Below, in pieces: positions 850 through 38,728 of a stretch of DNA of 43,243 bases (its first letter is position 1; each line of letters starts with the position of its first letter). Below the pieces are notes generated by a model. It saw nothing but the letters and a program-made list of their open reading frames with translations, ran no database searches and was not told where the DNA came from. The position numbers and the translations under genes were made by a program. Origin of the DNA: Gonapodya sp. JEL0774 (taxonomy: Eukaryota); the NCBI GenBank assembly GCA_027604505.1, contig JADIIX010000162.1, positions 1 to 43,243 of the forward strand, written 5' to 3'.

Positions 850-926
850 CAGCTTGCATGACCCCCTTCACTTCTTAAAATCAAAAGAATGAAGCCCTGC
901 TTCGCTTTCGCTCAGCAAAACTTCGT
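850..926 (-). repeat. Right terminal inverted repeat
   Basis: CAGCTTGCATGACCCCCTTCACTTC...CTTCGCTTTCGCTCAGCAAAACTTCGT is the reverse complement of 1-77; all 3 differences are transitions at CpG. Confidence 0.9.
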
Positions 927-929
927 CTC

Positions 930-10527: not shown

Positions 10528-13500
10528 ATGCCGATGGAATCCGCCCCACGCGGCCACCGCAACGCGAATGAAACTCCGAGGTCCCTTTCCAAGCTGATTG
10601 AACTTCGCGGTCTCGTCCCCGCTCCCGCTCCCACGTCCCGTTCTCGCTCCGAATTGGCGACAACCCGGGACTTGATCTCTTCAATCCGCATTTCTTCGGT
10701 TTTGAAAGGTCACTCGGGCTGTGTCAATACACTCGCTTGGAGTAACTCGGGACTCTTACTGTGCGTATTTCTATCGCAGCGATGGCGGTGGCTGTGGGAT
10801 GAGGTGGAGTTCGAGGATGAACACAATCACAGCAGCATGAAATTTTCATATTTTCCCAAATGGACACAGCTTCTGATCTTCCCACTGGTGCATATAACCT
10901 GTTTTTGCGTGCTTCTCGGTGCGTGGGACGTCCCGGGTCCGCAGTTCTCGTTCCTATTGTTCGTAAACAAATTGGCGATCCCATCTCGCGCGTCTTATTT
11001 TTCTCCCCTCGTTGCCCGAGGGTGTTTGTTGCTCTGGTCGGGACAGACTCTCGCTCCACACTCACCATCACTCTACTCCATCCCAACACACATGCTTTCC
11101 AGCTCTTCTTCCGACGACCACCTCCTCAACATTTACCGTCCCTTCCATCCGTCACCTCTCGTCCTTTCTGCACCCTCTGGACATACCGCGAACGTCTTTT
11201 CGGCCAGGTTCCTCGGGGATGGCTGTGGTGGCGCGGACGAAGCAAAAGTTGTCAGTTGTGCAGCGGACGGGGCCGTTAGGTGAGCGATGGTAGTGGTTAC
11301 TTTTGTGGGCTGGGTGGTCTTCGGTGGGTAGGGAGTGGGTCAGGATCTGGGATGAGTCAGTTTTATGGCTCCACAACAGTTTGGGTTTTGTGTGTCTGGA
11401 GTGGGACTTGCAATCGAAGAGTGGAGAAACTTAGTGTGCCCGGCTCGCTTGCGGGACCGCGGTTGTGTTTCTCCCTTCAAAGACCAACATTTCATTTTCG
11501 TCATCGAGTACCCTCACTCAACGTGGCCTTCAACTCTTACACTTACCGATCACAAAGATACACCGACCTCACACACCACCCGCCCCTCTCGGGATTCTCT
11601 ACCGCCTCACCTCTCGTCCACGTGCGTATGTAGAGGCTTGGGCTGCACAACCGTTGGAGCGTTGGGGACTGTGAAGAGCGAACGACTCCACACGTTTCTA
11701 CCGTCAATCCTGCTTGCTGAGATCCCCCACTTCTTTTCTTTTCCCTTTTCCATCGAACCCTCATGTTCTACCCCACCACGAAATAAAGCCGCCCATAATT
11801 CCCGCATTCAACTGCCACACCGACATGGCGTTCCAGGTTCTTCCCGATCCTATTGCCCCCGCGGTATTTATGAGCTGCAGTGGTGTGTATCGGGGGTTGG
11901 GTTTGTTGGCAGGCGAAAAAATGCGGACTGAACCATCTTAGGAGGTGTCGGTCGCATTTTGATGTTTGTGTTTTGTGTTTTGGTCGCAGTAGCGTGTACT
12001 GCTAGATTGCTGGATCGGTCGCGTTCAGGATTCGCCCGTTGCGTGTCTTCCCTTACAATCAAAACTGCTCCACTTTCTCACCATGTTTTTGTTCCTGCCG
12101 CTCTTCACATTTGCGCCCTGCCTGGTGATGAACCTCGGAAGAGGACGGCACAGTGAACCAGTATGATATCAGGGTACGCACATCGTGTCAGTGCGATGGG
12201 TGAGTTCTGACATCGCCGGGGAAGGCTTTGTTCTTTCGCCACTCGTGGCAGGGATTGGCAGAGGGTTGCCCCTTACACGCACCGCTGTGATGCGTGGTGG
12301 TGCTGTTAAGTACGATTGCAGTGATCGTCTCACATTTCGGATCACCTCCGTCACCCCCCTCTGCACCGCTGCCCTAACAAACTCATTCAAACACCCGATC
12401 AAACTTTGCCTCTGCCCAACTTCCACACCCGGCTCCCTTCCAGCTGCACCCGCCACACCCTCATCGACATCAACGCCGGCGCGGGCCTCAATCGGTCCAA
12501 AACCGACAAGGCACGCAGCATCCTTAAGTCACGATCTGCACCGCCCCATTCTTCGCCCTCCGACGCTGACGCTGACGCAAACACCAACGCCGACGAACCC
12601 CCATCTCGCCGGCGGCCAATCCCATTCGTCCTTCGAAGCCTGTTCCTTCCCCGACGGGCCGTGGCACCCCTAACCAGCGTCACGGCGATCTCCATAAATC
12701 CCGTTCGCCCGTGGCTCTTGGTGGTCGCGGGGGGCGACGGCGGAGTGAGAGTTGTCGATAGGAGGAAGGTCGTTGTCGGGGGTTGGGTTGACGTAGGAGA
12801 GAGGGACGAGGGGAAGGGGAATGGAGTGGAGTATGTGTGGAGAAAAGAGGGCGTCGGAGGGGGCAGGAGCCGGCGGGGGAGACGGGGGCCGGGGACTGGT
12901 GATGGTGGTGTTGCAGAGGAGGAAGAGGAGGATCCGAGATTGATTCGGGCATCCATCACTTCTGCGCAGTGGACAGAGGACGGAAGAGAGATAGTGGTGA
13001 GCTATTCGAGAGGGAATGTGTGCTTGGTGCGGGTGCCTGAAGCCTTTGGGAGCTCTCAACGGGAGAGAGAGTTGACTAGGGCAGAGAGGGAGCACGAGCA
13101 CGAGGAGGAACGCAAATGTTTGAGTGATATCGGCGACAACAACCACACCGACAGCGACGGGGAGTCAGTCAACGCCATTATTGACCGACTGGTGTTCTCC
13201 TCGTCCCCGTCTTCGACCACCTCATCTCCGCACCGTGCGCTCTGGAATCGCACGGCCGCATCGTCTCGTCGACCTTCCCACCTTGTTGTACAACGGGAAC
13301 AGTGGCGTCGAGTGTATGGAAACGAGAACGTGGAGGTGGATTTTGAGGATAGGGATACAGTGGGGGTGTATGGCGGGCACAAAAATGAGAGAACAATGGT
13401 GTGTTTACGGGTTGCTATGGAGGAAGAGGAGGATGCTGGATGTTGGCAGTAGGATTGACAATTTCGTTGTGATTGTCGTTTTCTGTTCCCAGATCAAGGA

Positions 13501-14042
13501 AGCGATCATGTATGGTGACTACGTTATGTCAGGCGCGGACAATGGGAAGTTGTTCGTTTGGTGAGTAGTTCCAAAGTCGGAGGCAATTGTGCATCTCCGT
13601 TCTGCCTTAGTGCAACACTCTCGACAATGTACAAATCCTTTCTACCACACTGCCGTTGCTCTTCAAGGCATCGCTCCTCTTCCGCACCCCTTTTTACCTT
13701 CCCAGCCGACCGCCGAGTTCTCAACTGCGTCGTCCCACACCCAACTCTTCCCGTCATTGCCTTGTCCGGTATCGATAACACCATCAAGATCGCCGAACCC
13801 ATGGAGCGGGCGAGCGGGGAGGGTGAAGATGGAAGGTCGGATTCTGGATGGCAAGAAGATGGAGAAGACGAGGAGGACGATAGTGACGATGAAGGAGATT
13901 CCATAGCAATTCCTCCGGATTTGTTCCTGAGGATGCTTGGTAGGTGTTCCTTTGCTCCGTATTGCCTTTTGTGACTTTGACTTTGTTCCATCGCTTGGTT
14001 TGGCAAGCGGCACTGGCGGCGGGACGTGGGCAGTCGGAGTGA
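10528..14042 (+). CDS. WD40 DDB1-CUL4-associated factor, DCAF6/DCAF8/WDTC1 family
   Basis: Family motifs in order across exons: LKGHSGCVNTLAWS, SSSDDHLLNIY, SGHTANVFSARFL, KVVSCAADGAVR, FNCHTDMAFQV, AISINPVRPWLLVVAGGDGGVRVVDRR, ITSAQWTEDGREIVVSYS, YGGHKNERTM|IKEA..YVMSGADNGKLFVW, ADRRVLNCVVPHPTLPVIALSGIDNTIKI. Start codon approximate. Confidence 0.9.
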
Positions 14043-14798: not shown

Positions 14799-17660
14799 AT
14801 CCAAAACACCCACGCCCATCTCTACCTCTAATGTGGAGAGAGTACCATGACGCCAGCATTTAGAGCACAGGTGATAGTGGTGAGATACAAACAGTCAATG
14901 TGTGCGGATACAACAGAGAGTCTGTTCAGTATTGTGAACCGCCTCTGTATACAAAATAACCGACAAAATGAAGCGCCCACTCAATGTTGAAGGGCAAGAC
15001 TAGCATAGTTCTGTAAAGAGATGCTTTGTTGTTCGGTTCTGGTTGGGGGGGGGGGGGGGGGGCTGAAAGATGTTGTGCCCCTCATCAGGACCGAACCAGA
15101 CGAACCCATGACTCTGACGGATCGGGGCAGGAAACTTTGCAATGGATGGATGCAATGTTGATCCCTACATTGACAAGGTGGTAAAACATTGCGCAGTGGT
15201 CCGGTACTCTCTGGATGCGTCCGCCGTGGTATTTTGGGAGTTGGCTTCGTCCGAATGAACATTCTTTCCACAGTTACATCCGAGATTGTTAGCTTGGACG
15301 AGGATGACGCCTGTTCCACCGTGTTGCATCTGAATTGCTCGTGTTCAGACCAGGTTCGTCTCACTGTTTTGCATCACCGTCTCGAGTACATATTGAACCT
15401 GTCATTCTAACCTTCAATTTTTTTGCTCCGTCGACCCCTTGATCGCCCCCGCCGATCGACCGTTTCTGCACGAAGATTCCAACTTCGCGCACACCTTATG
15501 CGGAAATGTCCGGAGGCCGGCTGGCCGGGGGGGCAGGACTTGCACGGATCAAGCAAACCGAGCAGGAAGCGTAATTGAATTGGGTGAGTACGGTGTCTGA
15601 TGCGCCTGCGTCGGCGTCTAATACGGACTCCGGAGCGGTGGACACCGAACACGAACTACGGAACCATCTTGAAAGTAAAAGTCAGGATGCCAGGATGCGG
15701 ATTCCAGTTTAGCGAGCAATTCACGTTGGGCGGCGTTTGAGCGGTCTTTGGTCTCAGTTTGTGACTACTATACCCGTTGTCCTCCTGCTTCAGGGTCGGC
15801 ATGGATCGCCCACCCCCTCACTTGCCCGTGCCTCGCTGCAAACCTCGCCCGCCGCTCCGCTTTGCTCTTGCACACCTCGTATACAGCAGCATCCTTGCTT
15901 TTTTCTCAGGCTCAAACCACGTGCAACTCCCCTACACCTTGCTGCTGGTACCTCTTCTGCTTCGTCGGTGCGACCCCTGTTGCCACTGACACCCCCGAAG
16001 CTCCGTTTCACGCACCCGAACTCTCGGCGTTTCCTTCATCCATCTCTCTCGTTCTATTACCGTCCACGCTCCGCTCTCATATCCGCCGCCGCACCACATC
16101 GCACTCCTCGATCTCTGCACTCTCACTACATCCCGCGCCGCATCTCACGTGAGTCACGTCCTCACCAAGGCGCACACAGACCGTCGCAACTCCCTGCATG
16201 CCGCCGCCAACGACTTGAATCGTCTCATGGTCATTTCCACCAACGCAACTGGGAGTACGGCCGCCGGCACCGCACATGGCCGTTAGAGGTCTGTGGAAGC
16301 CGCGAGTGAAGGTGAAAGTCAGGGGAATGGCGAGATGGACTTAGAGAAGGAGCTGAAGAGGGAGAGGTGCCTTCCCTGTGACTGTCCCCGCACACCTTCA
16401 AAGCCTCCATTGCCACCACCCCACATTCCTCCCCCTCACCCACCCGACACCGTCAAGGTCGCCACACGATATCCTCACACGTTTACGTTGACCCTGTTCG
16501 CCTCCGCACCGCCTTGCTCCACGGCTCCTCTGCCGCGTAGACCAACACCACTCCACCACTCCACCACCACACTACCCACCCACCCGCGCACCTACCACCG
16601 CCCACTCCAAGTCCCTCTCTCTCAGTCTACCGATCCCCCCCCACCCACTCCGGCCACCTCGTCCGCGTCGCCTCCAACCCCACGCTCACAGCGACCGAAC
16701 GGTCCCCTGTGGTGTCCTCCCGCGGCCACATATCCGGGGTACCGAGTCACTTCCTGCGTGAGGGGAATGAGAGCAGTGGAGGGGGCGGGTGGGGAGGTGC
16801 GGGGGAGGATAGAATGTGCGAGGCAATGGACGCACGGACACTCACTTCCTCGCCTTCATACCTGATAATGCGTTTGCTCATTTTTGTAGAGGGGAAATCG
16901 TTCCGGAACCGGTCAGTGCGTTGGTGTTGGTGCAATCATCAAGAGTAATTATTGAATTTGGTCAGGCCACCCTGTTTTTTGCACGATGTACCTCCTTTTT
17001 AAACCACATGGTATGGTGACGAAATCGTATGGGTCAAATTGCGCTTCAATGACCATCTTCGCCGCGCTTCATGTCAACAGACGATGTCTTCGGGCGCAAA
17101 ACGCATGGAACGAAGCAGTGGGCAAATGCGGAGGAAGAGCGAGAAGAAGAGCGTGGCTTCTTAGAGGATTGATTGTTTTATTCGTTGCTAATTGTTGTGC
17201 ATAGATAAGTGGTATCAGTAAACAAAATCAATCTTTAATTAATTTCTTTATCACCGTCCCAAGAGACGTGGCGCTAAGATTTCAAAAATAACTCAGCAAA
17301 GTTGGAGGTTGTGGGAGCCGCGTTGCTCGTTGCTACGGAATCCGGTGTTTCTGTTGGGCGTGGAATCTCCGGGTCAGGCGGCTGAAGGCTCCGCTCGGGC
17401 ACCTCGGGGACTCCAATCTCCGATTTCCCGAAGTCAAATATCGCAAGTTACCTGATTCTCCGCGAGTTGTTGAGACAAAGGAGAAGACTAGAATTTAATG
17501 AGATCAGTAATTTTATCTTTCGGTCGAATTTGTCGTTCAAAATGCCTATCGTTCCGAGGGTTTGTTTGGGGTCCCAAGAGGTCGCGAGAGGTCGCTTCTC
17601 CGACGTTTCCAAAACAGGTCACCATTCAAGAAAACGTGCAATCACCATCGAGCATCAATC

Positions 17661-20600
17661 ATGCGCGGCACATTGCTGAGGGCAATCCTGGGACTGCTCG
17701 CTCTCTCCATCCTCCAAGTCCAAGTTTTCGCGATTGGGCCAGGAGGGGGGGGTGGAGGTGGTGGAGGCGGAGGTGAGCTCGCGAGACCGGGATACCCGAA
17801 TCGGAAGTCGGATCCAGCATCATTGGCGCATTTCTTCGCTCAGGAATCGTAACGACGACATCCGCGACGTGAGTTCTTTGGCCTTGGCCTGTCATTATTA
17901 TCGCGCCCCCGCCCTGATACCCCACACCTTACCTGCCCCGCACTCCAATTCTTGGCAGCAAAACCTCGAGTACGACATCGCGAACTAGCAGTACGACTTC
18001 TAAAACAGCTACAACAACATCGACGACCACTCAGACGTAAGAGCTTTGTTTGGTAGAGTCAAACCTGTTTGATCGCATTCAACCACGACAATATCTGTTT
18101 GTCGAAATTTCAGGAAAACAACATCGTAAGTTACATATGATTTAAATACCAATTGTCAAACCACAGAAAAGTTTCTGACATAAGTTCACGTTAAGGCTAA
18201 CACAGAAGACAAGCTCAACCTCTACGTAAGTCGTGCCTGACCTGCAATCATCAGTCCCTTGAAAATCAAACAGCTTTTGCTTGGCTCAGCGGCACGCTGA
18301 CGACTACAGCTACAATCACGTAATTATTCTGAATTTGGGTGCGGGCTGGTTGGTGTTCTCACACTTTTTCGCATTGAACTACTGTCACAGCTCCACCCCC
18401 AGTACTTCCACCGAGAAAACCACGACCGAGACCACAACGTCGCAAACGCCCACCACCACCGAGACCCAGACAACGAGCACTGAATCAACCACCTCGGAAA
18501 CACCGACAACTACGGAGAGCACGACTTCCGAGACTCAAACCACGACTACGGAAAGCACCACTTCAGAGACACCAACGACCACCACAGAGAGTACAACCAG
18601 TGAAACGCAGACCACGACCACCGAGAGCACTACCTCGGAAACTCCCACGACCACCACAGAGAGCACAACCAGCGAGACGCAGACCACGACCACCGAGAGC
18701 ACCACCTCGGAAACACCCACGACCACAACCGAAACAACGACTTCCGAGACTCAGACCACCACCACAGAGACCACGACCTCGGAAACACCCACAACCACCA
18801 CAGAGAGCACAACCTCAGAAACACCAACCACGAGCGAAACTGAAACGTCCACCACCGAGACCACGGAGACAGTGTCTTCAACCACTTCAATGACCATTAC
18901 CGAGACCACCCAGACTCCTGAAACGACGAGTTCAGAAACTACTGCAACTATCACGCCCACGACCTCCTCTCAATCGTAAGTGCAGGTGCTCGCAGCATCT
19001 GAAATACGTCATCTGATCTTGGCTGATGCTCACAGAACCAGCTCATCCGCCACCAAGACGAAAACGTTGGTGTTAGATTGACGATTTGCACTCTGTTAGT
19101 TTCCTTCTCACGGATTTCTCCCTACAGCACCTCTCCCACTACCACCAAATCTGTTACGACCACATCTCAGACTAAAACGAAGACGTGAGATATCGTTCAC
19201 CGTTGTAGTTTCTTCCATTTTATTGCGTTCTTACGCCACGAGTACTCCAGCGCAACCTCCACCTCTACAACAAAAACAAAGTCGACGACCACCCTCACGT
19301 GAGAATAACTTTAATATGTGCGATCATACGTTCCTGCGGGTAATTGCTCTCATAATTCTCCAGCACCACTAAAAGCAAGACTTCGACTTCCACCTCGTGA
19401 GTTCTCAGGAAAGCAACATTATACTCTCTCTTCGGAGACAGTCAAACAAGCTTCGCTGGCTCCAACAATGCTATTGGTTTCAATTCCACAGGGCGACCAA
19501 AACGGCGACATCAACTTCCACGAAATCTGCGACATCAACTGCGACCAAATCTGCCACTAAAAGCTCCACCACGACGGGGACAACCACAAAGTCCGCTACT
19601 ACGACTGCAACACCAACGCAGTCTTCTACCACCTCATATACTGCGAGTACCAGCAGCACGTTGACTATCACAGTGTCTAGTACGACGTCGTTTACTGAAA
19701 CGTGAGCCTGTTTGAATTGAAATTCTCCTGTGTTAAAACACAGCGATAACACGATGCGATTTCCTAGAACCACAACCTTTGAAACCCCCACAACGACTTC
19801 AGAAACGCTAACCAGCTCAACTGAGACAACGACTGAAAGTACCACCTCGGAAACGCCCACAACCACCACAGAGAGCACGACTTCCGAGACCCCGACGACA
19901 ACCACCGAAACAACTACATCTGAGACTACGAGCACCGAATCAACAACTTCGGAAACACCAACTACCACTTCTGAAACACAGACTACGACCACTGAGAGTA
20001 CAACCTCGGAGACCCCTACGACCACCACAGACAGCACCACTTCTGAAACGACCTCCACTGAATCAACCACGTCGGAAACCACCGAAACTGCTTCCACCAC
20101 ATCGTCCATGACGATCACGGAGACCACTCAGACGACAGAAACTCAAACGTCGGAAACTGGAACGACTAGCTCGGAAACAGCCACAGCGTGAGGGTTTCAT
20201 CGTTTCGATTGACCTGTGCTTTCTTTACCGAGCTTGTTATGGCACCACAGTGAACTCACAACCACTTCTATTGTCACGATTCCATTCATCCCGGCACTCT
20301 CCACATCGTGAGTAAAGCACCAGAGTGTTCGATCGTTGTCTTCTCTGAACTCACGAAATTAATCGTTCATCAGTTCCACTACCAAGCCCGGCAAGACCTC
20401 TACCACATCCCGAACCAAAACTAGGACGACGACAAAACGAGCAACTACCACAAAACCGAAACCCACAACCACGACAGTGACCACGAAACCCGCAAAAATC
20501 ACCACGACTATAAAGCGGTCGTGTGACACGATCTACGCATCATACACTGCAGGTAGTGCCATAACAGCCACTGACCAGGCTGATTGGGAAGCTTGGTGAG

Positions 20601-21314
20601 TTCCACCGATCTTGGCAACCCTCCTGAGAGCTTGTCTAACAAGAGTAATTTCTTTCCATGATCCAGGTCGTGCAAAACATGTAGGTTGCAGTCTCCCCAT
20701 GCCGCATTGTCATGCACGTAAATGACTTCTTACAAACGCGATGAAGGGTTCCCCCAAGGGATTGGAAAGTCACGAACTTGCGACACAATATATGATGCGT
20801 TCACAAATGGTGTCGCTATGACTACCCAGGACTTCGCGGACTGGGAAGCTTGGTGAGTGACTGTTTTGGAGTCCGTGGAACCCTGCCAGTTCATTGACAC
20901 CATGTCATCCGTTGACTGTGATTGTTGATACAAATTACAGGATCTGCAAGACATGTGAGTTAGTCGTCCGAGTTGCTCTCATGTGCACCAGGGTTTCTTA
21001 TGGTTCTCTTTGTGCTACGTCTCGGTGCCATTGTAGGGTTCCCGAGCGGCATTGGCTACGTTCGGAGCTGTGACACCATATATCAAGCTTATAAGATCGG
21101 CAACAAGATCACCTCACAAGACATCTCAGATTGGACTGCCTGGTAAGTTGTTGTTCCATGATGTTGATTTGGGTGTGTTCGTGCTGACGTGTTGAATTTA
21201 TTCTACATCCAGGAACTGCAAAACCTGTGAGTAAGACTTACATCTGTGTTTTCTTTGTATGCACTCATCATTTCTGTTATTCAAACAGGGTTCCCGATGG
21301 GCATTGGCAACTAA
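17661..21314 (+). CDS. Secreted Thr/Ser-rich mucin-like protein A with three C-terminal 40-aa Cys/Trp repeats
   Basis: Signal peptide MRGTLLRAILGLLALSILQVQVFA and poly-Gly, an intron at 17773-17843, many small Thr-rich exons, two (ET[P/Q]TTTTE[S/T]TTS)n blocks, then three R[ST]CDTIY...DWxAWxCKTWFPxGIG units. Stop TAA at 21312-21314. Confidence 0.85.
18415..18850 (+). repeat. Coding minisatellite, 36-nt/12-aa unit ET[P/Q]TTTTE[S/T]TTS (gene A block 1)
   Basis: Visible in ORF 18281-18979; protein repeat near-perfect, codons synonymously diverged. Confidence 0.9.
19780..20090 (+). repeat. Coding minisatellite, ET-type repeat (gene A block 2)
   Basis: Visible in ORF 19730-20191. Confidence 0.85.
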
Positions 21315-21982
21315 AGAAATCCAACTTTCGTACAATACAAGGACGGGAGAGGTTAGGTTATATGTGAACACGGGAAACTATAATACTTAGAACCCTACAA
21401 GGTGTACAACAGTAGACATAGAAGAGTGTTGCACGCGTATTACGAGCAGTGTGGCGCACACACCTTAAAGTGCCAGCTTGCCCTCAAAGCCAACAGTATA
21501 GCCTTCAGTCACTCCGTAGTACATAGCGGTTTTGATGTCCTTATCAGAATGTTCGGTCGGTGCCTGTGGACTGACGCCACTCGCAGGATTTCCCGAAATG
21601 GAAAGGGCGCTCTTCCCGCCATATTATTTCGAATTTCATCTGTGAGAGAGAAGGCCGCCCAATTAAATTCGTTACCCATCAAATTCGTTAACTGGCAAAT
21701 GTGTTATCCCGGACATCAATCTTTTGTCTTGTGTACATAACATTATTTACATCCTTCTGTTGCTCATATTCCCTGCGACACAGAGACTTCTCACGGCTGC
21801 CCGCTTCGCTTTTAAAACCATATATATCATTATTCAAGCATATGTACTAGGCAGTATTGATCCTATTTGGGCAAGGCGGAGCCTCAGTGACCCTGAACTG
21901 TGTGGAGAACTTCGTTTCCATTTGCGCACACAAAATCCGCGGACATCAGTAGTTTCACCCCCCACGCTTCAAAAGAAGAAGC

Positions 21983-24661
21983 ATGAGGACCACGAGCGCT
22001 CTGATCGTAGGTCTGGCAGTGGCCTTTATGGCGGTGATCCACCCGTCGAAAGCTGCAGTGGGTTCCGGCACCCAGTGTGTTGTTGACGGGGATTGCTACA
22101 ACCACAACTGTGAGTATCATGTTGTGCACCACAGCAGCACCTGTTTCCATGATGAAATGCCTGTGAATTGAATACTGGTCTTGATGGGCCATTTTCGGTT
22201 GGAAGGTCACCTCTGACGTTTCGAAACCTTAATCCATTCAGGTGACCTGATTCCCAGCGATAACGTCGGAGTATGCTACTGCAGCTCTTCCGGGTCTTGG
22301 TCGTGGAATTACAGTGAGTTCTCTACCTCTTTTTCGCTCATGGATTGTTACAGATTCTTATCGTGTCTTCAACGCCACACAGACATGAGATGCAACTTCG
22401 GAAAAGTTCAATACCGTTCAAACTGCATGGGGACTGGCGGCAACTGGCTCGATGTCTATCCTTCGAGGGCCTGCCCGCAAACGACCACGTGAGTACAGGG
22501 ACCACAGTCGGTGATGTTTCAACGGATTTGGACAAGACCTTGTATTACTGCAGGACACGAACAACGACCAAGACGGCCACCACAACGTACGTTGTGTTTC
22601 CTTTCTCACACTTGGTAGCTGATTTCCTTTTCTGAGTTGGTTCTCCGTGTTCATTCTTTTCCCCCACTCTATAACGTTCCATTTGGAACTTCAGGAAAAC
22701 AACCTCTTCCACGAAATCGTGAGCTTTCTCTTTGAAATACTCCAGAAAAAACTTTGATTCATCTGAGTCGTGCAAATATAGAACTACTACTACTGTTTCG
22801 ACCACCAAAACTCTACCGTCCACAACTACCACAGCAGCACCCAGCACCACAACCAAATCCACAACGAGCGAGACCCCAACCACCACCACGGAGAGCACAA
22901 CTTCCGAAACCCAGACCACAACCACTGAAAGCACAACCTCAGAGACTCCCACTACTACGACAGAGACCACCACTTCTGAGACCCAGACCACGACTACGGA
23001 GAGCACAACTTCTGAGACACCGACCACAACCACGGAGACAACCACTTCTGAGACCCAAACCACCACTACCGAGAGCACGACCTCGGAAACGCCTACGACT
23101 ACGACAGAGACAACCACGAGCGAGACCCAGACCACGACCACCGAAAGCACGACCTCGGAAACACCTACGACTACGACAGAGACCACCACGAGCGAGACGC
23201 AGACCACGACCACCGAAAGCACAACATCGGAAACTCCCACCACGACCACAGAAAGCACAACATCGGAAACTCCCACCACGACCACAGAAAGCACAACGAG
23301 TGAGACTGAGACGACTACCACGGAGAGCACCACAACCGAGACAACCAGTACTGAATCCACCACCTCGGAAACCACTGAGACCCCTTCCACCACATCTTCC
23401 CTGACAATTACCGAGACGACAGGAACCGAAACAACCAGCTCAGAGACTTCCACCGCGTGAGCGACCTTTGCTGTTGTATTCAGCTCTATCTGTTTCTGAT
23501 TTAACCCGTTTATGCGAATTCAGAGAGCCAACGACCGCCCTCATAGTTTCCTCAGCTCTCTCTTCTTCGTGAGGCCGGCCGAGAGCGATTTATTCCTTTA
23601 CTATTGACCTTTTATACTCTCATCATTTCTTTAGTACGACTGCTAAGCCTGGCAAGACGTCCACTGCGACAAAGACGAAAACCTCCACCAAGACAAAAAC
23701 GGCCACAGCTACGAGGACCAAAACGGCAACCACTACAAAGCTGCCGAAGGTTACCACGACTGTGACCACCAAGCCGGCAAAGATCACCACGACTGTTACC
23801 ACCAAGCCGGCAAAGATCACCACGACTGCTACCACCAATCCAGCAAAGATTACAACCACCATCAAACGTACGTGCGACACGATTTATTCGACATTCCTTG
23901 CGGGTGGTGCCATTACAGCGACAGACCAGGCCGATTGGGAAGCTTGGTGAGTTTACGGAAACCGTAAACAATGTAACTTGCAAAGGTGATCCATCTCGGT
24001 TGATTTTTGCTCACATAGGTCTTGCAAAACATGTAAGTTGTTAATCCCAATTGAGTCTCCCTCCCACTAATAGCCGATGGTTTGCTATTCTCAGGGTACC
24101 CGGGTGGCATTGGAAAGCCACGCACATGTGACACCATCTACACTGCGTTCTTGAGTGGTGTCACCATGACCACTCAGGACTACTCAGACTGGGATGCATG
24201 GTGAGTTTGACAATAGGGAATGAGAACCCAGGCACATGCTAACTGTTAGATATCAATCCATTTCAACCCTTCCAGGAACTGCAAAACTTGTGAGTCCGCT
24301 GCCAACTTTGCATGCCCCCGTAATTTTTCGACTTCCTTCGTGGCTCTCTAACACCTTTGTGTATCAGGGTTCCCGCACGGCATCGGCTACGTTCGTAGCT
24401 GTGACACCATTTACAAGGCGTTCAAAGCGGGCACCGCGATGACTGCGCAAGACTCAGCAGATTGGGCGGCGTGGTGAGTGATAAGCAAATCTTCCTGCTG
24501 ATATGCTTCAATTGACCATTTATGTAATCGGTTCATTCGATAATTTGTTGATTCATACAGGAACTGTAAAACTTGTAAGTAAATTTGGCGATGGAGAAAG
24601 GGTTATCATCTCTTATTCTTTGCGTTTTTGTTCAGGGTTCCCCACCGGTATTGGCAAGTAA
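21983..24661 (+). CDS. Secreted Thr-rich mucin-like protein B with an 8-Cys N-terminal head and three C-terminal 40-aa Cys/Trp repeats
   Basis: Signal peptide MRTTSALIVGLAVAFMAVIHPSKA, a Cys-rich head over three exons, an ET-repeat exon (~22781-23456), TTKPAKITTT repeats, and three C-terminal units with the same intron positions as gene A. Stop TAA at 24659-24661. Confidence 0.85.
22860..23380 (+). repeat. Coding minisatellite, 12-aa ET-type repeat (gene B)
   Basis: Visible in ORF 22732-23460, with alternating ETP/ETQ units. Confidence 0.9.
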
Positions 24662-27159
24662 TGGACAGGCGAATTTTTAATTTTTGCGATGTACACGATG
24701 GGAGAGATTGGCGTTGCGATTCTCACTGAAGACGTTGGCGTTTTGATGGCATTCTCATCGTTTTGGATTATCGTACAGAACTTACAGCGTAAATTAGTTG
24801 CAGTAGAGCCATCTCACTGATGGCGTACAAACATCGTAACATTGGGCTAATGCCAGAATCAGACTGTTCGATCATTTTGCGGGTGAACGAAAAGACTGGG
24901 ACCTGAATCGAGACAGTGGTGTTGAAAAACCTCTTTTCCCGGTAGTCCATCGAATGTGCTATATCGAGCGTGAATCATCATTCGAATTGGATGTGACGGG
25001 GGAGAGAGATGCTGCAAGTAAGATGAGAGTGCATCGGGAACGCCAAACAAACCGTCTGAGAGCGATATTGTGTAGAATGTGCTTCATCGCCACCAGAATT
25101 ATTGAGCAAGCCCAAGTCACATCAATTTCAATGATATTTTTTCAACGCCATCACGATCGGTGCGTGTTCCGAAAGATTGTGTTACCGCATTCGCAGCCGC
25201 TGCACGCCGATTTTCATGAAAACAATGCGCCTCCCATGACTTCTCGTGGTCACTGTTAGACGATACGACCAGCAGGTCTTCTGGATTCGAAGTTACAGGC
25301 AATAAAGGCAACTTTCAAACAGCCAGAAGTCAAGTATTCCGCAAAGAAGTAAGGATTGTCGACGAAACCAGCTAGCGGAATTTCCATGATAGCACAGCTT
25401 CTCCTCTAAACGTCGAAAGACTCCATATCGCTTGGAAGACAATAGGTCTCAGAGTTAAGACATTCCCGTCAAAGACTCTGATTGTATGCAGGTATAACTG
25501 GGGTCACAAGGATTCCAAAATAGCAAATGTGCACGGTAGTATGGCAAGTTGGTGAGAAAACGTCACTGTAGGTTCTCTATCGTTGTTGTCGGGTTTGAGA
25601 CCACGAGGGCAAAGTTTTCATTTACGCACTCCCGAGTTTCGAGGCAGCCCAGAGATTTAGAAGATAGGAGCATCCGTGCGCACGGTATATCCAATCGAAC
25701 TCGAAATGCTTCTCGAATGGAGCGTCTTTCGATGTTCGATTCGAGTAATAGGTTCTCTTTTTCTGCGGACGAGCAAGAACATGCGGTACATCTGGTACCA
25801 ACTCGTTTCGGAATTTCTTTTTGACGTTGAGCGGTAGGGAATACAAAACTCAAGACGCTGATGGGATACCTTTGTTTGTTTGGGTTGTGCACCGAGATGG
25901 GAAGAAGGAGGGGGTGCCACACGCAAAAACGACAAACTTTCATTGGCTCAACGACGATCCGTTCGGAGCTTGTTTGGGTCGTATCCAAGCCGATGCCAAG
26001 ATTTTTTGAAGCCTGGATACTTCGAGAGGACAACCGCGGGACTCCCTAGCCGCCATAGACTTGATGGCAGTTAACATCATCCACAGCACCAGCACTCAGG
26101 GAACCGATGGGCACTCCAGATTGATAACGAGTCCGAGTTTGGAGTTCTTCCGAAGGTGCCCGGTTACCTCTCTCCTTCGAACGACTGCCAGTCACAAGAA
26201 GTGGGAACAATGTCAGACGATGTCCACAGTTCTGCACGAGCCTACCGAACGTCATCCCCAAAGAGTGCTGACGTGTTCTTCCTCTCTTTCGCCACACCTC
26301 GCGAGTCTTCTGCGTCGTCTCGCATCACGCGTGCAAGACCTCCAGAATGACCAAACTGTTCACAAAACTTCCCAAATCACTCTCAATGCTTGAAGCGAAT
26401 CCTTTGTAGTTCTCTATAGGCTGCGTGTCGGTTGGACTCTTTGCATAATCTTTTGCATGTGAATATTTCTCATGGAGCAGGAATCGCGAAGGAAAGCATT
26501 ACGGGATCGCATCCATCCCCGCCACATTCACTCCGCTGACATTCCAAGCTCTCGTTCACCAAGAGGGTGTAATTATGTCAGAGTTGATCAGTTGAGACTG
26601 AAGGGCCACTCACTCCTCATAGCATTTTGTCAACGAGAACAAGACTTCTGCATGAAATTCCAACGAATCTTTCCTCGTGGGCTAGTTTTGCTAGAGCGGT
26701 GCGATCATCTTTCGTGAATGAAGTGAATGAAAATGATTAATCTACTGTACCAATAATCTGGGCCAAAGTGGGGGTTTAGAGGAGCCTGTCAGTGTCTGAA
26801 CCATCATTCCAACACACCATAATGCGTGAGTTTCCCACGTCCCAGAGACACCGCGGGCGCGATTTTGCTTCGCTCGATTGATTCTAAGATGGATTCTCCG
26901 GTCGGGATATCTGATTCCTCACCGTCGCTCACCTTTGCTGGCTGCGGCGCACCTGTTCTCTTTCATCGCGAAACTCTCTGATCACTTTCGGAAACACATC
27001 CAATCGACAGACTATCACTGCTACCTCGTCTTTCTCGCTCTCGTCTCTTCTGTAAGTTTGATACGGTCTTGCGAGTGGGTTTTTGATGGCGTCTGGTCCT
27101 AACCCAAAATCTCCCCTTCACTCCATTCACTCTCACAATCCAAAATATACACTTCTTTC

Positions 27160-28683: not shown

Positions 28684-31600
28684 GCAGGCAGCGGAGGGCG
28701 CGCAGTGGGCAACGAGAGGAACTTCTGACGTTCTTGTCCATCGACTTTCTTTCATTCCTGCTTCTTTATTTCGGAGGGTATGGCTTCTTTGTTATTGTTT
28801 GCTTTGCCTTTACATTTAGTCTCCTAGGGGGTGGGCATCGGGGTTGTGGGTTTGGACAGAGGATTTGAGCTGTGTTCAGGGGATATGGGGCGAGAGGGCT
28901 GAGGTTTGATGAACGATCGTCGGCTCGGAGGGCGAGCGCGGACTGGACGATCGTTAAGCTCGGAGGGCGAGCGGGGGACCTTCCCTGCCAGATGCAGGAC
29001 GCTTGCACATTGGAACAAGGAGTGCCGATGATATCACTTGATCAGCACTCTGAATACCACCCGGCACACCACTACCAGAATTTCGTCGTACTCCGCAACT
29101 GCGCTGTGCTCTCTTTCCTGGCCGCGGGGAATTTCGTGTCGCCATCCATCCTCTCCCCCGCCCCGCCAACCCCTCCGTCCTCCTCCCACCTCACAACCTC
29201 AAGCAGGGAGTGATCTTCTTTGGCTTCGCATCTATCAAGCATGCACCGATATCACGGACTCGTCAACATCCTGCACCACGTGCCCCGTCAAACGTATTCC
29301 GCTCTCACACCTACTCCAACTCCGATCCCACACCACTCCCCGATGATCCCAATCCTACTCCCACTTCCACTCCGTTGACGATCTGATTCTGGCTCGCTCC
29401 ACACTTGATCTCGGTCGGCATCCCCACGCCATACATCTGGTCCCAGTTTCTGCAGAGCCGCCACAGCAATCGGCCAAGGACGCCATCTCGCTCCGCCGCC
29501 TCAGCGCCATCGGCACCTCAACTCTCAACCGAGAAATTTCCCTCAACAACCAGGCCTGCATCAGGGCGGGGGGGGGGGGGGGGGGGGGGGGGNNNNNNNN
29601 NNCCGCCGCCTCCGGGCCATGGGCACCACAACCCTCAACCGTTAAATTCCCCCCCCCCCCCCGGCCCCCCCCCCCCCCCCCCCCCCCCTCCTTCATCCTC
29701 CAACGTGTCCCTAACCTCATCCGCAACCACGCGCTCCGAATTGTCGGCTTCGACTTCTTCTGCCGATTCTCGTACTTTCCGCCCCCACCACCCACACACA
29801 CCGCCCCGCCCCCCCCCACATCCCAACAGAAACGCACCTCAACCGAAAATATCTATGCGCGCGAGCTCCATTTGATTCGACAACTGCGCCAGATACCTTG
29901 TCCTGTCACGCCTCGAACAGATAGTCAGGAAAGGCCTCATCAGACTCCTAGTGGGTCGACATCATTGATCTCGGAGTCACACGGCAATTGATTGCAGTCC
30001 AGTCGAATGGGCAAAGTTGTTGATTAAGCTCACATCACTCTCTGTACACCTTACCCGACGTTCCGTGTGCTTGTCAGGAACCCTCGCGGGTCCCGATTCC
30101 ATCATGCCCCAAAGGATGCTGCGTGCAGCGTCTCCTCTTTGGGATTGCGTGGATCGGCGGTGGGTTTTGAGTGAGAGAAAGGTATGAGTGCCGTGCCAAT
30201 AGGTTGGAAGTTGTTGATCCCGCTCACCGGACTCTCCGTCAATTATAACCGACCCATAGTGAAGACGACGCCTACATCGAATCCCCATCCTCATCCCGTG
30301 CCGAGAGACGGCTCTTTATCCACGACATGTAGTGGAGAGGTGCGATTCATTATGTTGACGGTGAGAATTACCGTGCTGTCATGGAGTCTCCGCGTGGTAT
30401 CTTAAACTCACCTTAGATGCGATTTGCGCGGCCTCACTTCAGTTGACAGAACTCCGAGCCGCAACTCCCCTCACGTTCACCGTCTATCGACGACTGCTCG
30501 CTTGTGAGAAGGTCGGTGGCATCCAGTTTGAGCTCCGCTACACACCCCATCCTGGGCGTGCATCCAGCACGTTTGGGATGGGCCCATGTGTGGTTTGTGC
30601 TCCTGCGAACCCTGGCCCGGGCGTACATCCAGTACGTTTAGGACAGGATAATGCGCGGACAAGACTGGCTGATCATTCGACCCGAGATACCGGAGAATGG
30701 GACATCACGTGACAATACGATACAGTACCGTGACGGCGGATTGGTGACGTAGTAGCCGGGACGGGAGGAAGAGCAGTTCGCTCCGTGTAGGGGGTCGGAT
30801 AGGAGGAGGAGGGTGTACTCCGTGATGGGTTTATGGAGGGATGCGTTGGAGTGATGTCGGGAGTGGGGAGAGGTTGGGGGGGGGGGGGGGGGGGGGTTTT
30901 AAACAGACAAAAAAATATATTAANNNNNNNNNNCCCCCCCCCCCCCCCCACCGCAAGGACTAAGTATATTATTAATCTGGACTAATCTGTTCACTTCAAG
31001 TGGGAGCTACACCGGGTTTTATGGTCTCTTGCATGTGTATAACAATGTTTTTGCTAAATTTATGATATTGGCAACGGTTGAGTGTTCTCCGCGTCGGAAG
31101 TGCCAGGAGGGAATGTAACCAAAAAATACATCACAATTCACAAACACGAAGATCGTCAAGTCGCACAGCTATGACCCTGACGATGGACGGCGACAAAGGG
31201 GAGATTCTAATAGGAGATTCCATGTATTACATAAAGCTGGTTTGGTATGTAGCAGTGCTCTCGTGAGTGTGCTATGGATGAGGGATGATCGGCGGGGGAG
31301 ACACCACTACGCTGTTCGTGGAAACCAGCACAGTAATTCTCTCCACCAAATGTAAATACGACGCTCGGTGTTCCTCGTTGGGCAAAACGTCGTTATCTGA
31401 CAGTTGTGAGTAGATAGCAGAAGAACATCAGAAACCCAGGAGGAAGAGCGGCAACCTGAAGGAGCCGGCGGTTGAACCTTCTCCGACATTCTCGCCAAGA
31501 ATGTTAATGGCAGGAGCAGCAAAATAACAACAGCAAATTCAGCAAAAATTTGCAAATCTCCACCACCGGCACCATAGCGTACTGGCCAGAGTTTGTCGCC

Positions 31601-31994: not shown

Positions 31995-33979
31995 ATGGCC
32001 GACGAAGCGGATATAAACCCATGCCCTGCTTCAATTGATGTGATGACATATGAGTACACACCTGCAGGTGAATTGGATTTTCTTGTCGGAAGTCCCTTCC
32101 GCTGAGTCCCTCAGGAAACCGCTTTCCAGATAATGCATTTCTGTTGGTCTGTGCCGCATTGGTCATGATTATGACTCCTGGTGAGTGTCCGCCGCCGAGC
32201 TCGACGTTGGTAACTCGCTTGCGCGGTCCTCAACCTTGCCCTTAACGTGGTCGATACTTCCAAAGGTCTTGGCTTCTACTACAGTGGAATGGCACGCTCC
32301 AAGAACGCCCTTACTCTTATAATGCTGTGTTTTATTTCCTATGCTGTTGTAACGGTCCAAGTGAGACTCTGGTTCAATTTTCAATGTTATGTAACGTCAT
32401 TAACTCCCGAGGACTCCTCATCAGTGGTTCCTTTTTGGATTCTCCCTCACATTTTCGGATACGGGAAGTTTTTTCTGGGGCGACTGTGCTCACTGCGTGT
32501 TCCGGAACGTCGGCCAGAATCTCTTGAAGAACGCACCAACAATTCCCATCATCACCTTCCAATTCTACCAGCTCATGTTTGCCATCATTACTCCAGCTCT
32601 TATTTTTGGATCTGCGGCTGAGCGTGTTCGGATCCTGCCGTCCGTGGTGTTTGTTTTTGTGTGGTCAACTGTTGTGTATTGTAGGTGTGACTTGCGTCGC
32701 GGTTTTGCGCATTACTTTTGACCCATTCATCTCCTTGTGCCAGCACCAATTGCATACTGGGCCTGGTCTGCGAACGGGTGGCTCAACATGATTGGTTACT
32801 TAGACTTTGCCGGTGGTACACCGGTTCACGCATCATCTGGTTTTGCTGGTTTGGCGCTGGCACTTGCTCTAGGGCGCAGAAAACACACCGAGGATTTCAA
32901 GGCCTCATCAATCGCAAACGTATTTCTTGGCACTGGTGAGTTCTTGACCATCTACTCGAAACCCGTTCTTCAAAACACCGATTGCCGATCATGGTGCTGC
33001 TCTCAACTCTCAGCCCTCCTCTGGTTTGGATGGTTTGGTTTCAACGGCGGATCTGAGCTCGCTTCCAATGCTCGTTCCGCCAATGCGATGACCGTCACCA
33101 ACATATCTGCGGCTTTCGGAGGCCTCGTGTGGATGCTCATGGATTACATCACTCTTCGGAAAATGTCCGGTCTTGGCTTCTGCTCTGGTGTAGTTGCCGG
33201 ACTAGTGGGTATCACCCCAGCCTCTGGATTTGTATCGCCTGCATCTGCGTTCGCGATCGGGGGTATCGTTTCGGCTGTCTGCAACACCATGGTGCGACTG
33301 AAGGCTTACTACATGTACGGTGAGTGGCCCAGACTCAGGACAGGAATGAGCAAAGTTCAATCAATCATATCAGTCGCATAATTTTTTGCTGCTCATTCAG
33401 ACGACACACTCGATTCCTTCAATGTCCATGGGATAGGAGGCGTGACTGGTGACATTCTCACAGGCGTGTTCGCCCAGAGGTCCATCAAAGCAATGAGTGG
33501 GTGACTTTTCTGTATTCTCTCCCGCTAACGCTTGGATCACAAATTTCCAACCTCCGTTCAGATTTGTACCCCAACATTGGTTCTGTGAACCAAGCGTGCC
33601 TGGATACCCTTCCTGCCCTCGGCTGGCTCGACGGCAACTGGATCCAAGTAGCAAAACAACTAGCTGGAGCGTCGGCAGGGGCTGCGTGGTCTTTTTTGGT
33701 GACGTATGCTATTGTGTCCATCATGCAAAAGGTGACAATTATAAGTTGTCAACTTCATTCTGCTCGAACTGCTCATTTTGTTGTGTCCCTTGTCAGATCC
33801 CGGGCCTGCAACTTCGGGTCAGTCAATGGACGGAAGTTCTCGGCTCCGACCAGGGAGAGATGGGCGAAATGTCGTACGATTATGTGGAATCTCTCAGCCA
33901 CGTTCCGGATCGGAGCAAATCACCACCTGGGTCCGCCGTTGTCCACAATGCTTCTATACACCGGCTACCGAGCAGATAG
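31995..33979 (+). CDS. amt: Ammonium transporter, Amt/Mep family
   Basis: Spliced MADEADINPCP..A|DNAFLLVCAALVMIMTP|GLGFYYSGMARSKNA, FQFYQLMFAIITPALIFGSAAERVR, LDFAGGTPVHASSG, LLWFGWFGFNGGS, AGLVGITPASGFV, DDTLDSFNVHGIGG. Both pore histidines are present. Confidence 0.96.
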
Positions 33980-34328
33980 GTCTTTTTCCTTTCGTTGGTT
34001 TGGCTGGACTCTACACAGAAAAGGTCTCTGCCCATTCAAGTCTCGTTGTGAGGAGTTTGGAGGAGGCAGTCATCGTCATGGGAATCTGCTTCTACATTCA
34101 TCATTATATAATTAGATTATTTCTACGTGTATAATTCTACATATGATATCATGGCATTTCTTATCTCGACCGTTAGTCAACTTGAAATGGACGCAGACAA
34201 ACCAATTATCTTCCATAACGCCACGTCCACTCAACTGAACCAGCAGTTCCGAAGCTCCCCGTCCACGGGCTTATCGGACCTGTGGTAATACCAGTATATA
34301 CCCTGGAGTCCGGGCCTGGGATCGTCCC

Positions 34329-37595: not shown

Positions 37596-38728
37596 GGTTC
37601 CTAAAGTGCGGTGTGGGTATTAACAGAATGGGGAACGCGCCAAAACCAGCCAATTGTTAAGTTTTTCGAATCACGTTGGCAAAGAATGAGGGGTTAAGTG
37701 AGGGAGGTGTGCACAACGGACGCACGGCCGATTCTTCTGCCCAGAATAACAGTCTCCAGTGATGTGGGGATCCGATACCTCAGCTCCCAACCGGAGTTCT
37801 CTCGAAATAGGCTCAATTTCCTAAAGATGCCAGTTTCTCAGCCCACGTTCTCCAAGCTTTTGTGGCCTTGCTTGGCAGACAAGCCTAGACTGTCTTTTTC
37901 AGTTCAGGAAAGTTGAGCAGAAACAAGCAGCTCCAATGTTCGCTGAGTGTCTCCATCGTTCGTTCGTCCTACGAGATCGTCCTGTCCCCCGATATGATTC
38001 TCCCACTCTTCGCCAAGTCAGGGCCACCAGCATGCCATCAAGTCCCCGATAGAAGCCACAGAAGCTCCCCGCCCAGTCTGCGCAGGCGCTGTGCATTTGC
38101 TCTTGTCTGCTTTTGTACTTACGATATCGTCGCTGCAGGACTTGAACGCAGGCAGGTGATCTTTCGTCGGACACAAAAACGGAAAGCACGACCTCATCCC
38201 CTCCCTCCCTTCGTGGCGCAGCCCCAACGGCGACCACCGCCCCCTTCGCAAAATTTCAGGTGAACACATAATGACCCAATGAGGGTAACACGTATCAAAA
38301 AGCATTGCGAATTTCAATGGGAGTAATTCTCGGTGTCCATTTCTCACTGTGTGCTGACGATGGTACGGCAGTTTATTGATGACTACTGTACCTTTTGTAT
38401 TGTCAAATTTATCAGCAATTCTCTTCCTCCAACTGCGTTCAGGTTGATCCAGAGGTTCGCTTTCGCCAAGAGTCTGACTCAGGGCAGTTGGGTAGATGCT
38501 GGCGAGGTGTAAGTCGGCCTCCCCGAGATCTTTGTTGACGGGTAGGTGACCTTCATTTCACGCAACACCAATGTAAAGCATTCAAGACACCGGCCATTCC
38601 TGCAATTTCGTTGAAGAGCGAGTGTTTTGATGTGTCCTTCTGGGGTTGCTCCGTGGCAGAACTCTGAGCAAAACTTTCAATGATGTCATTGCGTTTCTCA
38701 CTCAAGGAAATCCGCACATGCATGCTCA

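What the first reader, a model, noticed from the sequence alone, without database searches (positions are those of the whole stretch)
20667..24574. A 14-nt microexon repeated six times carries the second cysteine of each module
Seen: AG/GT-flanked 14-nt exons at 20667-20680 (GTCGTGCAAAACAT), 20941-20954, 21213-21226, 24019-24032, 24276-24289 and 24561-24574. Each encodes (W)xCKT(W), with both flanking Trp codons split by introns (TG|G and T|GG). Since 14 is not a multiple of 3, skipping shifts the frame, so inclusion is obligatory or acts as a truncation switch. Intron positions are identical in all copies while intron sequences diverge, so the module was duplicated with its introns. Gene predictors would probably mis-model this, which could explain why the domain is unnoticed.
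Basis: seen in the sequence. Interest (0 to 1): 0.7.

Follow-up and report, generated by a model that had tools for sequence, protein, structure and literature searches.

The report
Microexon-split module on chytrid enzymes
In an aquatic fungus, six 14-base stretches are likely ordinary, always-used tiny exons that complete a small unnamed protein module, and the same module sits in tandem on many secreted sugar-polymer-digesting enzymes of this fungus and its relatives, where it likely makes them stick to their food or to the cell surface.

Summary
The six AG/GT-flanked 14-nt segments are at the stated coordinates. They are not six copies in one gene. They are three copies in each of two tandem Gonapodya genes, each modelled as signal peptide + Thr/Ser stalk + three 40-aa modules. 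Inclusion is strongly supported without RNA data. Spliced modules score 70-78 bits against a profile built only from other genes, versus 37-45 unspliced. Variation is synonymous in the modelled frame, while the introns are unrelated. Skipping truncates after 10-31 codons; no sign of a regulated switch. Such microexons are common in intron-rich fungi. The real find is the module: 54 copies in 19 proteins of Gonapodya and two chytrids, 13 of them carbohydrate-active enzymes (GH5, 7, 16, 26, 28, 45, CE4, pectinesterase) and one an M60-like peptidase. It has no Pfam, NCBIfam or PDB match and is predicted helical with two Cys. Best reading: a new carbohydrate-binding-type tether (about 0.5); rival: a dockerin analogue (about 0.2). 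Mis-modelling is partly borne out: 4 of 54 database copies break at this spot.

The parts
17661..21314 (+). Gene 1 (hand-built model, 21 exons, 742 aa): signal peptide, Gly run, Thr/Ser stalk (58% T+S overall), three modules at the C-terminus, no catalytic domain, no C-terminal hydrophobic anchor
   Evidence: 20 of 20 introns GT-AG (60-95 nt), one open frame; one weak donor (19066) and two AAG acceptors; not confirmed by RNA
21983..24661 (+). Gene 2 (hand-built model, 14 exons, 557 aa): signal peptide, N-terminal 8-Cys domain, Thr/Ser stalk, three modules at the C-terminus
   Evidence: (exons 7-8 corrected), 74: 13 of 13 introns GT-AG (61-132 nt); starts 668 nt after the stop of gene 1
20667..20680 (+). 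14-nt exon, gene 1 module 1 (S-C-K-T between split Trp codons)
20941..20954 (+). 14-nt exon, gene 1 module 2 (I-C-K-T)
21213..21226 (+). 14-nt exon, gene 1 module 3 (N-C-K-T)
24019..24032 (+). 14-nt exon, gene 2 module 1 (S-C-K-T)
24276..24289 (+). 14-nt exon, gene 2 module 2 (N-C-K-T)
24561..24574 (+). 14-nt exon, gene 2 module 3 (N-C-K-T)
20374..20595 (+). Gene 1 exon: end of stalk and first part (Cys1, both predicted helices) of module 1
20747..20852 (+). 106-nt exon: tail of module 1 + first part of module 2 (gene 1)
21037..21142 (+). 106-nt exon: tail of module 2 + first part of module 3 (gene 1)
21289..21314 (+). Last coding exon of gene 1: tail of module 3 and stop
23635..23946 (+). Gene 2 exon: Lys/Thr-rich stalk end and first part of module 1
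24095..24200 (+). 106-nt exon: tail of module 1 + first part of module 2 (gene 2)
24368..24473 (+). 106-nt exon: tail of module 2 + first part of module 3 (gene 2)
24636..24661 (+). Last coding exon of gene 2: tail of module 3 and stop
22055..22488 (+). N-terminal 8-Cys domain of gene 2 (three exons); weakly similar to the N-terminus of G. prolifera P0003
   Evidence: (28% over 64 aa including the signal peptide, pairwise E 3e-4); no Pfam match at cut-off
17959..20307 (+). Stalk exons of gene 1, all phase 2-2 and multiples of 3 (78, 12, 30, 30, 585, 30, 57, 48, 33, 210, 420, 57 nt); 36-nt internal repeat in the long exons
22554..23568 (+). Stalk exons of gene 2, all phase 2-2 (33, 24, 675, 45 nt)

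Best explanation
The six 14-nt segments are likely always-included microexons that supply the second cysteine of a small, unnamed 40-residue module, which likely works like a carbohydrate-binding module and would tether secreted proteins to an insoluble glycan surface. Shown in sequence: two tandem genes, each with three modules behind a long Thr/Ser stalk, and the same module in 1-5 copies on many secreted enzymes of Gonapodya and on two chytrid proteins. Inferred (about 0.9): the microexon is spliced constitutively by ordinary short-intron splicing; it is a passive product of two introns that landed 14 nt apart inside the module and were then copied with it (intragenic triplication, then copying to a second gene). 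Predicted: a two-helix unit closed by a Cys1-Cys2 disulfide, with conserved Trp/Tyr and Asp/Gln residues. Inferred (about 0.5): tandem copies bind a common surface polymer (substrate wall or own wall) by avidity, so that enzymes of an aquatic decomposer do not diffuse away; the two enzyme-less window proteins would be adhesin- or mucilage-like stalks anchored by the same module.
For: Splicing: (see observation check); 43 of 54 database copies have W-x-C-x-x-W at exactly the spliced spacing and 7 more keep the Cys with another aromatic or nearby change (two rows re-sorted by eye). All alternatives tested (skipping, retention of either or both introns, other acceptors within 175 nt) stop within 0-44 codons. 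Frame-shifting microexons are common in intron-rich fungi: 1,165 C. cinerea genes (9%) have one of <=15 nt, 835 with a stop on omission (PMC12230235, passages). Function: 13 of 19 carriers are carbohydrate-active enzymes of eight families, one is an M60-like peptidase. Copies sit N- or C-terminal of the catalytic domain, behind Thr- or Pro-rich linkers, with 0-153 residues between copies, so they are independent units. GH7 (P0016) and GH45 (P0004) carry it where fungal cellulases usually carry CBM1 (recalled knowledge). Among 45 aligned copies the second Cys and two Asp are invariant and three aromatic positions nearly so. AlphaFold2 with alignment: two helices, pLDDT 81, pTM 0.60.
Against: No RNA evidence and no binding data. 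The enzymes act on very different substrates (beta-glucan, cellulose, mannan, pectin, chitin-type acetyl groups, glycoprotein), which fits a protein scaffold as well as a shared glycan. P0007 has a CBM1 in addition to three modules, so it does not simply replace CBM1. Known CBMs are mostly beta-rich (recalled), whereas this unit is predicted helical. A second model of two modules without an alignment gave one continuous helix per module (pLDDT 72, pTM 0.47), so the hairpin is not reproduced. The disulfide and exposure of the aromatic residues could not be measured because no coordinates were returned. Whether the enzyme genes share the microexon could not be checked in DNA.
Confidence: 0.5

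Rival explanations
1. The microexons are constitutive, but the module is a dockerin analogue: it binds a protein scaffold and assembles diverse enzymes into a cellulosome-like complex on the surface of an aerobic aquatic fungus.
For: Tandem copies at either terminus of nine enzyme families, including a peptidase, match the described placement of fungal dockerins, including N-terminal copies on GH45 (PMC7015840, passages). High conservation regardless of the enzyme's substrate. Co-occurrence with a true CBM1 in P0007.
Against: No Pfam match for any of 9 copies and no PDB sequence match at E<0.5. No scaffold is known or was searched for. Only 17 carriers in two Gonapodya proteomes, against more than 227 dockerin proteins per anaerobic fungus. 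Six carriers (two window genes, P0003, P0017, P0018, P0019) have no secreted enzyme domain, which is odd for dockerins.
Confidence: 0.2
2. The module has a structural or self-associating role (cross-linking, metal or lipid binding) rather than recognising a glycan or scaffold.
For: Invariant Asp pair and Trp cluster. Enzyme-less stalk proteins and the Cladochytrium and Zopfochytrium proteins carry it, the latter with extra Cys. Resemblance in spirit to the Trp-rich disulfide loops of the BAD-1 adhesin (PMC3708853, abstract).
Against: Strong enrichment on carbohydrate-active enzymes (13 of 19). One Asp fits a helix-capping position (inference from the model).
Confidence: 0.2
3. The microexon is a regulated switch: skipping truncates the protein or removes modules in some life stages.
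For: Skipping does truncate. Skipping microexon + next exon removes exactly one module in frame. Alternative splicing was suggested for microexon-rich P450 genes of P. chrysosporium (PMC1184071, passages).
Against: Donors and acceptors are of the commonest types in these genes. The flanking introns share no conserved element and are of ordinary length (median 71.5 vs 66 nt). The out-of-frame tails are unrelated between copies.
Confidence: 0.07
4. The segments are chance matches or the two genes are pseudogenes.
For: No RNA evidence; no public model of either gene was found.
Against: 33 of 33 GT-AG introns give two open frames. Synonymous-only change in the C-K-T codons while introns and four-fold sites are near saturation.
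Confidence: 0.03

Closest known systems
Frame-shifting microexons (<=15 nt) of intron-rich fungi, e.g. Coprinopsis cinerea (PMC12230235) and Phanerochaete P450 genes (PMC1184071); domain-core microexons of plants such as the 9-nt AP2 exon (PMC8831610)
   Same: Tiny internal exon with canonical sites, inside a conserved domain, needed for the frame, prone to mis-annotation.
   Different: Here it is multiplied as part of a 120-nt two-exon cassette within a tandem domain repeat, in an early-diverging zoosporic fungus. Inclusion is inferred from conservation, not from reads.
Fungal non-catalytic dockerin (CBM10-like) of Neocallimastigomycota
   Same: About 40 aa, Cys and Trp containing (size and residues recalled), tandem copies at N- or C-terminus of many unrelated secreted enzymes (PMC7015840 passages).
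   Different: No sequence match; two Cys; predicted helical; far fewer carriers; no scaffoldin known; found in aerobic Monoblepharidomycetes and Chytridiomycetes.
Small fungal carbohydrate-binding modules (CBM1 and the like)
   Same: Small disulfide module with conserved aromatics, joined to GH7, GH45, GH5 and others by Thr/Pro-rich linkers.
   Different: No Pfam match; predicted helical; usually 2-5 copies; can co-occur with CBM1 (P0007); binding untested.
Blastomyces BAD-1 tandem repeat (WxxWxxW loop)
   Same: Secreted fungal tandem repeat with a two-Cys loop and clustered Trp (abstract).
   Different: BAD-1 has 17-residue loops and 41 repeats; here W-x-x-W-x-C-x-x-W, with 27 residues between the Cys, on enzymes. 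No sequence comparison was run.
Schistosoma micro-exon genes (MEGs)
   Same: Secreted proteins built from many short exons (search listing); the stalk exons here are short and frame-symmetric.
   Different: The 14-nt exons are asymmetric (phase 2 to 1) and cannot be skipped singly; introns are short; no evidence of isoform diversity.

Membership tests
Microexon (<=15 nt, internal, coding) | Length <=15 nt with canonical AG/GT flanks inside a gene | tested here: met
   6 of 6
Microexon (<=15 nt, internal, coding) | Needed for the open frame and under coding selection | tested here: met
Microexon (<=15 nt, internal, coding) | Present in spliced mRNA | not testable with these tools
   no reads could be laid on the region
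Regulated (switch-like) microexon | Condition-dependent skipping; conserved flanking intronic elements | tested here: inconclusive
   no conserved intronic element among 12 introns; skipping rate not measurable
Carbohydrate-binding module (general) | Discrete non-catalytic unit within carbohydrate-active enzymes | tested here: met
   13 of 19 carriers are such enzymes; variable linkers; folded model pLDDT 81
Carbohydrate-binding module (general) | Binds carbohydrate | not testable with these tools
   needs a binding assay
Known CBM families held in Pfam (e.g. CBM_1) | Profile match | tested here: not met
   0 families for 9 of 9 copies; in whole proteins CBM_1 hits a different stretch of P0007. 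CAZy/dbCAN profiles were not available.
Fungal dockerin (CBM10-like) | Tandem copies at either terminus of diverse secreted enzymes | tested here: met
   definition from PMC7015840 passages
Fungal dockerin (CBM10-like) | Sequence match to the dockerin profile or solved structures | tested here: not met
   (that Pfam holds this family as CBM_10 is recalled)
Fungal dockerin (CBM10-like) | Same fold | tested here: inconclusive
   best Z 3.3 (rmsd 4.0, 38 aligned), generic helical rows only
Fungal dockerin (CBM10-like) | Binds a scaffoldin encoded in the genome | not tested
   no genome held; no candidate partner
Schistosoma-type micro-exon gene | Short exons are frame-symmetric and singly skippable | tested here: not met
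   14-nt exons are phase 2 to 1; only the stalk exons are symmetric
BAD-1 / thrombospondin-like WxxWxxW repeat | WxxWxxW motif in a 17-residue disulfide loop | tested here: not met
   alignment of 45 copies shows W-x-x-W-x-C-x-x-W with the Cys 27 residues apart

The most novel reading that the evidence does not exclude
The module is an independently evolved, all-helical dockerin analogue: aerobic zoosporic fungi (Gonapodya and some chytrids) assemble their glycoside hydrolases, esterases and peptidases into a surface-bound, cellulosome-like complex, a third origin of such complexes after bacteria and anaerobic gut fungi, with the long stalk proteins of this window as structural spacers.
Probability: 0.18. 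Interest if true: 0.85.

Novelty: new member of a known kind. Interest (0 to 1): 0.5.

Why it matters
The microexon itself is ordinary for intron-rich fungi, though it is a clean case of a two-exon cassette being copied with its introns and of annotation failing at such a site. The module matters more. It is an unnamed appendage shared by nine enzyme families in early-diverging aquatic fungi, with no known sequence family. If it binds glycans it would be a new, probably helical CBM family and a usable tag. If it binds a scaffold it would mean enzyme complexes outside the anaerobic gut fungi. Either would address how aquatic fungi keep secreted enzymes from diffusing away, a problem raised in PMC6690862 (passages). 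A 40-residue peptide makes both readings easy to test.

Tried and rejected
RNA: no RNA holder was listed for 17500-24800; this is no evidence either way. No whole genome is held, so intron positions in the enzyme genes could not be read. DNA searches with the module alignment confirmed no relative in metagenome (243 candidate stretches), prokaryote-genome (3) or viral contigs (55). A splice-pattern scan of metagenomes gave 62 loci, 0 of 62 with the module. Family searches: Pfam gave only a sub-threshold DUF5419 hit for 1 of 9 exon pieces (20.1 bits vs cut-off 31.8) and nothing for 9 whole modules; NCBIfam nothing; PDB sequence nothing below E 0.06; ESM Atlas no usable named hit. Fold searches gave no clear match (Foldseek 0 at E<=0.001; VIA best Z 3.3), which shows neither a new fold nor a different one. 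The unaligned two-module model was poor. The module tree is mostly unresolved (2 of 40 inner branches starred, bootstrap not settled; 2 short rows left out) and was used only for the position-matched pairs. 'Gonapodya-specific' (my reading) was dropped when one search found Cladochytrium and Zopfochytrium carriers. The histidine-kinase, WD40, permease and dehydrogenase partners in P0003, P0008, P0010 and P0009 were treated as probable gene-model fusions (inference: cytosolic or membrane domains joined to secreted modules; P0003 also has out-of-frame stalk sequence). Literature: searches Gonapodya+dockerin, Gonapodya+carbohydrate-binding module (47), non-catalytic dockerin+Monoblepharid (64), Gonapodya/tandem repeat/secreted/novel domain (100) and microexon searches listed no paper describing this module; I judged most from listings only. 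Supplements were not read, and CAZy and subscription journals are not covered, so a prior mention cannot be excluded. Four look-ups of earlier scan findings were empty. No complex prediction was run, for want of a reasoned partner.
Full report
Observation. The six segments are at the stated coordinates, each 14 nt, with CAG or TAG before and a GTRAGT or GTAGGT donor after. Upstream of each lies a TG|GT donor (intron 70-88 nt) and downstream an AG|GG acceptor (61-82 nt), so both Trp codons around x-C-K-T are split. A pattern describing this layout matches exactly these six places on the + strand and none on the - strand (shuffles: mean 0.32, maximum 3 of 200; post hoc).

Gene anatomy. The copies belong to two tandem genes, not one. 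Gene 1 (17661-21314, 21 exons, 742 aa) and gene 2 (21983-24661, 14 exons, 557 aa) were modelled by hand; 33 of 33 introns are GT-AG and each model gives one open frame. Both have a hydrophobic N-terminus, no hydrophobic C-terminal anchor, a Thr/Ser stalk of alternating basic and acidic blocks, and three directly adjacent 40-aa modules at the C-terminus. Gene 2 also has an 8-Cys N-terminal domain. Small exons are normal here: the stalks contain 12-, 24-, 30- and 33-nt exons, all phase 2-2. A neighbouring gene encodes database protein P0014, labelled Gonapodya sp., on a contig of the window's length, so the window is from that genus and its contig is annotated.

Are the microexons used? No reads could be laid, so the evidence is comparative. 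(i) In the modelled frame Cys, Lys and Thr are invariant while their third positions vary; the other frames give mostly non-synonymous differences and one a stop. (ii) The flanking introns are no more alike than shuffles, and four-fold sites in the exons are near saturation. (iii) Against a profile built from nine modules of other genes, unspliced pieces score 37-45 bits and spliced modules 70-78. (iv) 43 of 54 database copies have W-x-C-x-x-W at the spacing the microexon gives, 7 are intact variants and 4 are broken (my pattern mis-sorted P0008_716, which is broken, and P0018_66, which is intact; a degenerate 11.5-bit copy in P0001 was left out). (v) Skipping stops after 10-31 codons and retention after 1-44. 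I put constitutive inclusion at about 0.9.

History. Position-matched modules of the two genes are the most alike (78, 76, 72% nt vs 55-68%). The tree joins the two first modules (100/96) and, more weakly and with one long-branch outside row, the two second modules (89/90); the third pair is unresolved. So the triplet arose first and was then copied. The introns lie inside the module, not at its borders, so classic exon shuffling does not explain its spread; but microexon + 106-nt exon form a 120-nt frame-symmetric cassette that can be duplicated or skipped as one module.

Switch or not. Splice sites are of the commonest types in these genes, intron lengths are ordinary (median 71.5 vs 66 nt), no intronic element is shared and the out-of-frame tails are unrelated. 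In C. cinerea about 9% of genes have an internal exon of <=15 nt, and omission creates a stop in 835 (PMC12230235, passages); plant microexons likewise sit in domain cores and are often missed (PMC8831610, passages). Frame dependence is therefore not evidence of regulation.

Mis-modelling. No model of either gene appeared in three searches, although one used words from the window's own exons (limits: 73-2000 aa, word index, cluster representatives). All four broken database copies break at or within three residues of the first split Trp. P0003 reads Cys in place of Trp-x and then leaves the module at the second Trp, as wrong acceptors after TG| and T| would give (inference). P0015 continues in sequence that is 45% Tyr/His/Asn/Asp with no Thr, the signature of Thr codons read out of frame (50% in the window's own shifted frame, 15% background). 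This suggests, indirectly, that other genes share these introns. But most copies are annotated intact, so the domain was available to be seen.

The module. Searches found 19 carriers: 9 in G. prolifera, 8 in Gonapodya sp., and one each in Cladochytrium tenue and Zopfochytrium polystomum (taxonomy). The HMMER search of 1.84 billion representatives gave 10 proteins at E<=0.001, all from these fungi. Partners: GH5, GH7, GH16 (2), GH26, GH45 (2), GH28 + pectinesterase, pectinesterase, polysaccharide deacetylase (4), an M60-like peptidase, one unassigned domain, and four without a secreted catalytic domain. Copies number 1-5, lie at either end, and are 0-153 residues apart. The core is [ST]-C-D-[TS]-I, then D-x-x-D-W-x-x-W-x-C-x-x-W. 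There is no Pfam, NCBIfam or PDB sequence match. AlphaFold2 gives two helices with a Cys at each end of the pair (pLDDT 81, pTM 0.60); the disulfide is inferred, a model without alignment did not reproduce the hairpin, and fold searches were uninformative.

Mechanism. The module's position, linkers and conserved aromatic and acidic residues are those of a non-catalytic targeting unit. I favour binding to a common insoluble glycan surface with avidity from tandem copies (about 0.5), useful to an aquatic saprotroph of decaying fruit (habitat: PMC6690862 passages; pectin use: PMC4494064 passages). A dockerin-like role (about 0.2) fits the substrate-independent spread and the placement described for fungal dockerins (PMC7015840 passages), but there is no sequence link, no known scaffold, and several carriers have no enzyme. 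A structural role takes about 0.2. None of these was tested directly.

Comparison and novelty. The microexon is a new example of a known kind. The module is not a member of any family I could test; it works, by architecture, like a CBM or dockerin. The paper searches listed under Tried and rejected showed no description of it. Papers seen: passages of PMC6690862, PMC12230235, PMC8831610, PMC1184071, PMC4494064, PMC12484212 (nothing used) and PMC7015840; abstract and outline of PMC3708853; listing only for 10.1101/2023.06.21.545858. Supplements were not read and could hold domain tables that bear on novelty.

Verdict. Observation confirmed; interpretation partly supported; interest 0.5, carried by the module rather than the microexon.

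Noticed in passing
window 17959-20307 and 22554-23568 (+): All stalk exons of both genes are phase 2-2 and multiples of three, many only 12-57 nt; the small ones mostly encode Lys-rich basic stretches and the long ones Glu-rich 12-residue repeats. These, not the 14-nt exons, are the natural candidates for in-frame skipping that would vary stalk length and charge.
   Followed up: partly
window 22055-22488 (+): Gene 2 has an N-terminal 8-Cys domain without a Pfam match; G. prolifera P0003 has a weakly similar one before a stalk and four modules, and may be its counterpart, apparently fused in the public model to a histidine kinase.
   Followed up: partly
P0001 residues 380-455: A degenerate module (14.3 bits vs best 6.8 of 300 shuffles) is followed by a second two-Cys, Trp-Trp stretch; this may link the module to a wider, more diverged family.
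   Followed up: partly
P0017, P0018: Cladochytrium and Zopfochytrium carriers have 3-4 modules with extra Cys and no catalytic domain.
   Followed up: no
P0008, P0012, P0020: Three module-bearing polysaccharide deacetylases have neighbouring accession numbers on contigs of the same length (181,586), probably a tandem cluster.
   Followed up: no
window 862-1410 (+), with inverted arms 1-77 / 850-926: Chromodomain and integrase C-terminal hints (both below Pfam cut-off), likely a chromovirus-type retrotransposon remnant; a 77-nt, 96% inverted repeat lies beside it.
   Followed up: no
window 32214-34100 (+): Ammonium transporter gene (Pfam PF00909, E 1.8e-44 for one exon).
   Followed up: no
window 35913-37600 (-): Secreted-looking gene with hydrophobic N- and C-termini and an L-D-A-V-D-F-D-N-E motif recalling GH18 chitinases (recalled; no Pfam hit for the separate exons).
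   Followed up: no
window 10375-14000 (+) and 38729-43090 (+): A WD40-repeat gene (weak Pfam hits) and the two-exon gene for P0014.
   Followed up: partly
window 5930-5962, 15033-15068, 29550-29703, 30859-30963: Long G/C homopolymers, some next to runs of N (30 N in the window), probably assembly-limiting stretches.
   Followed up: no
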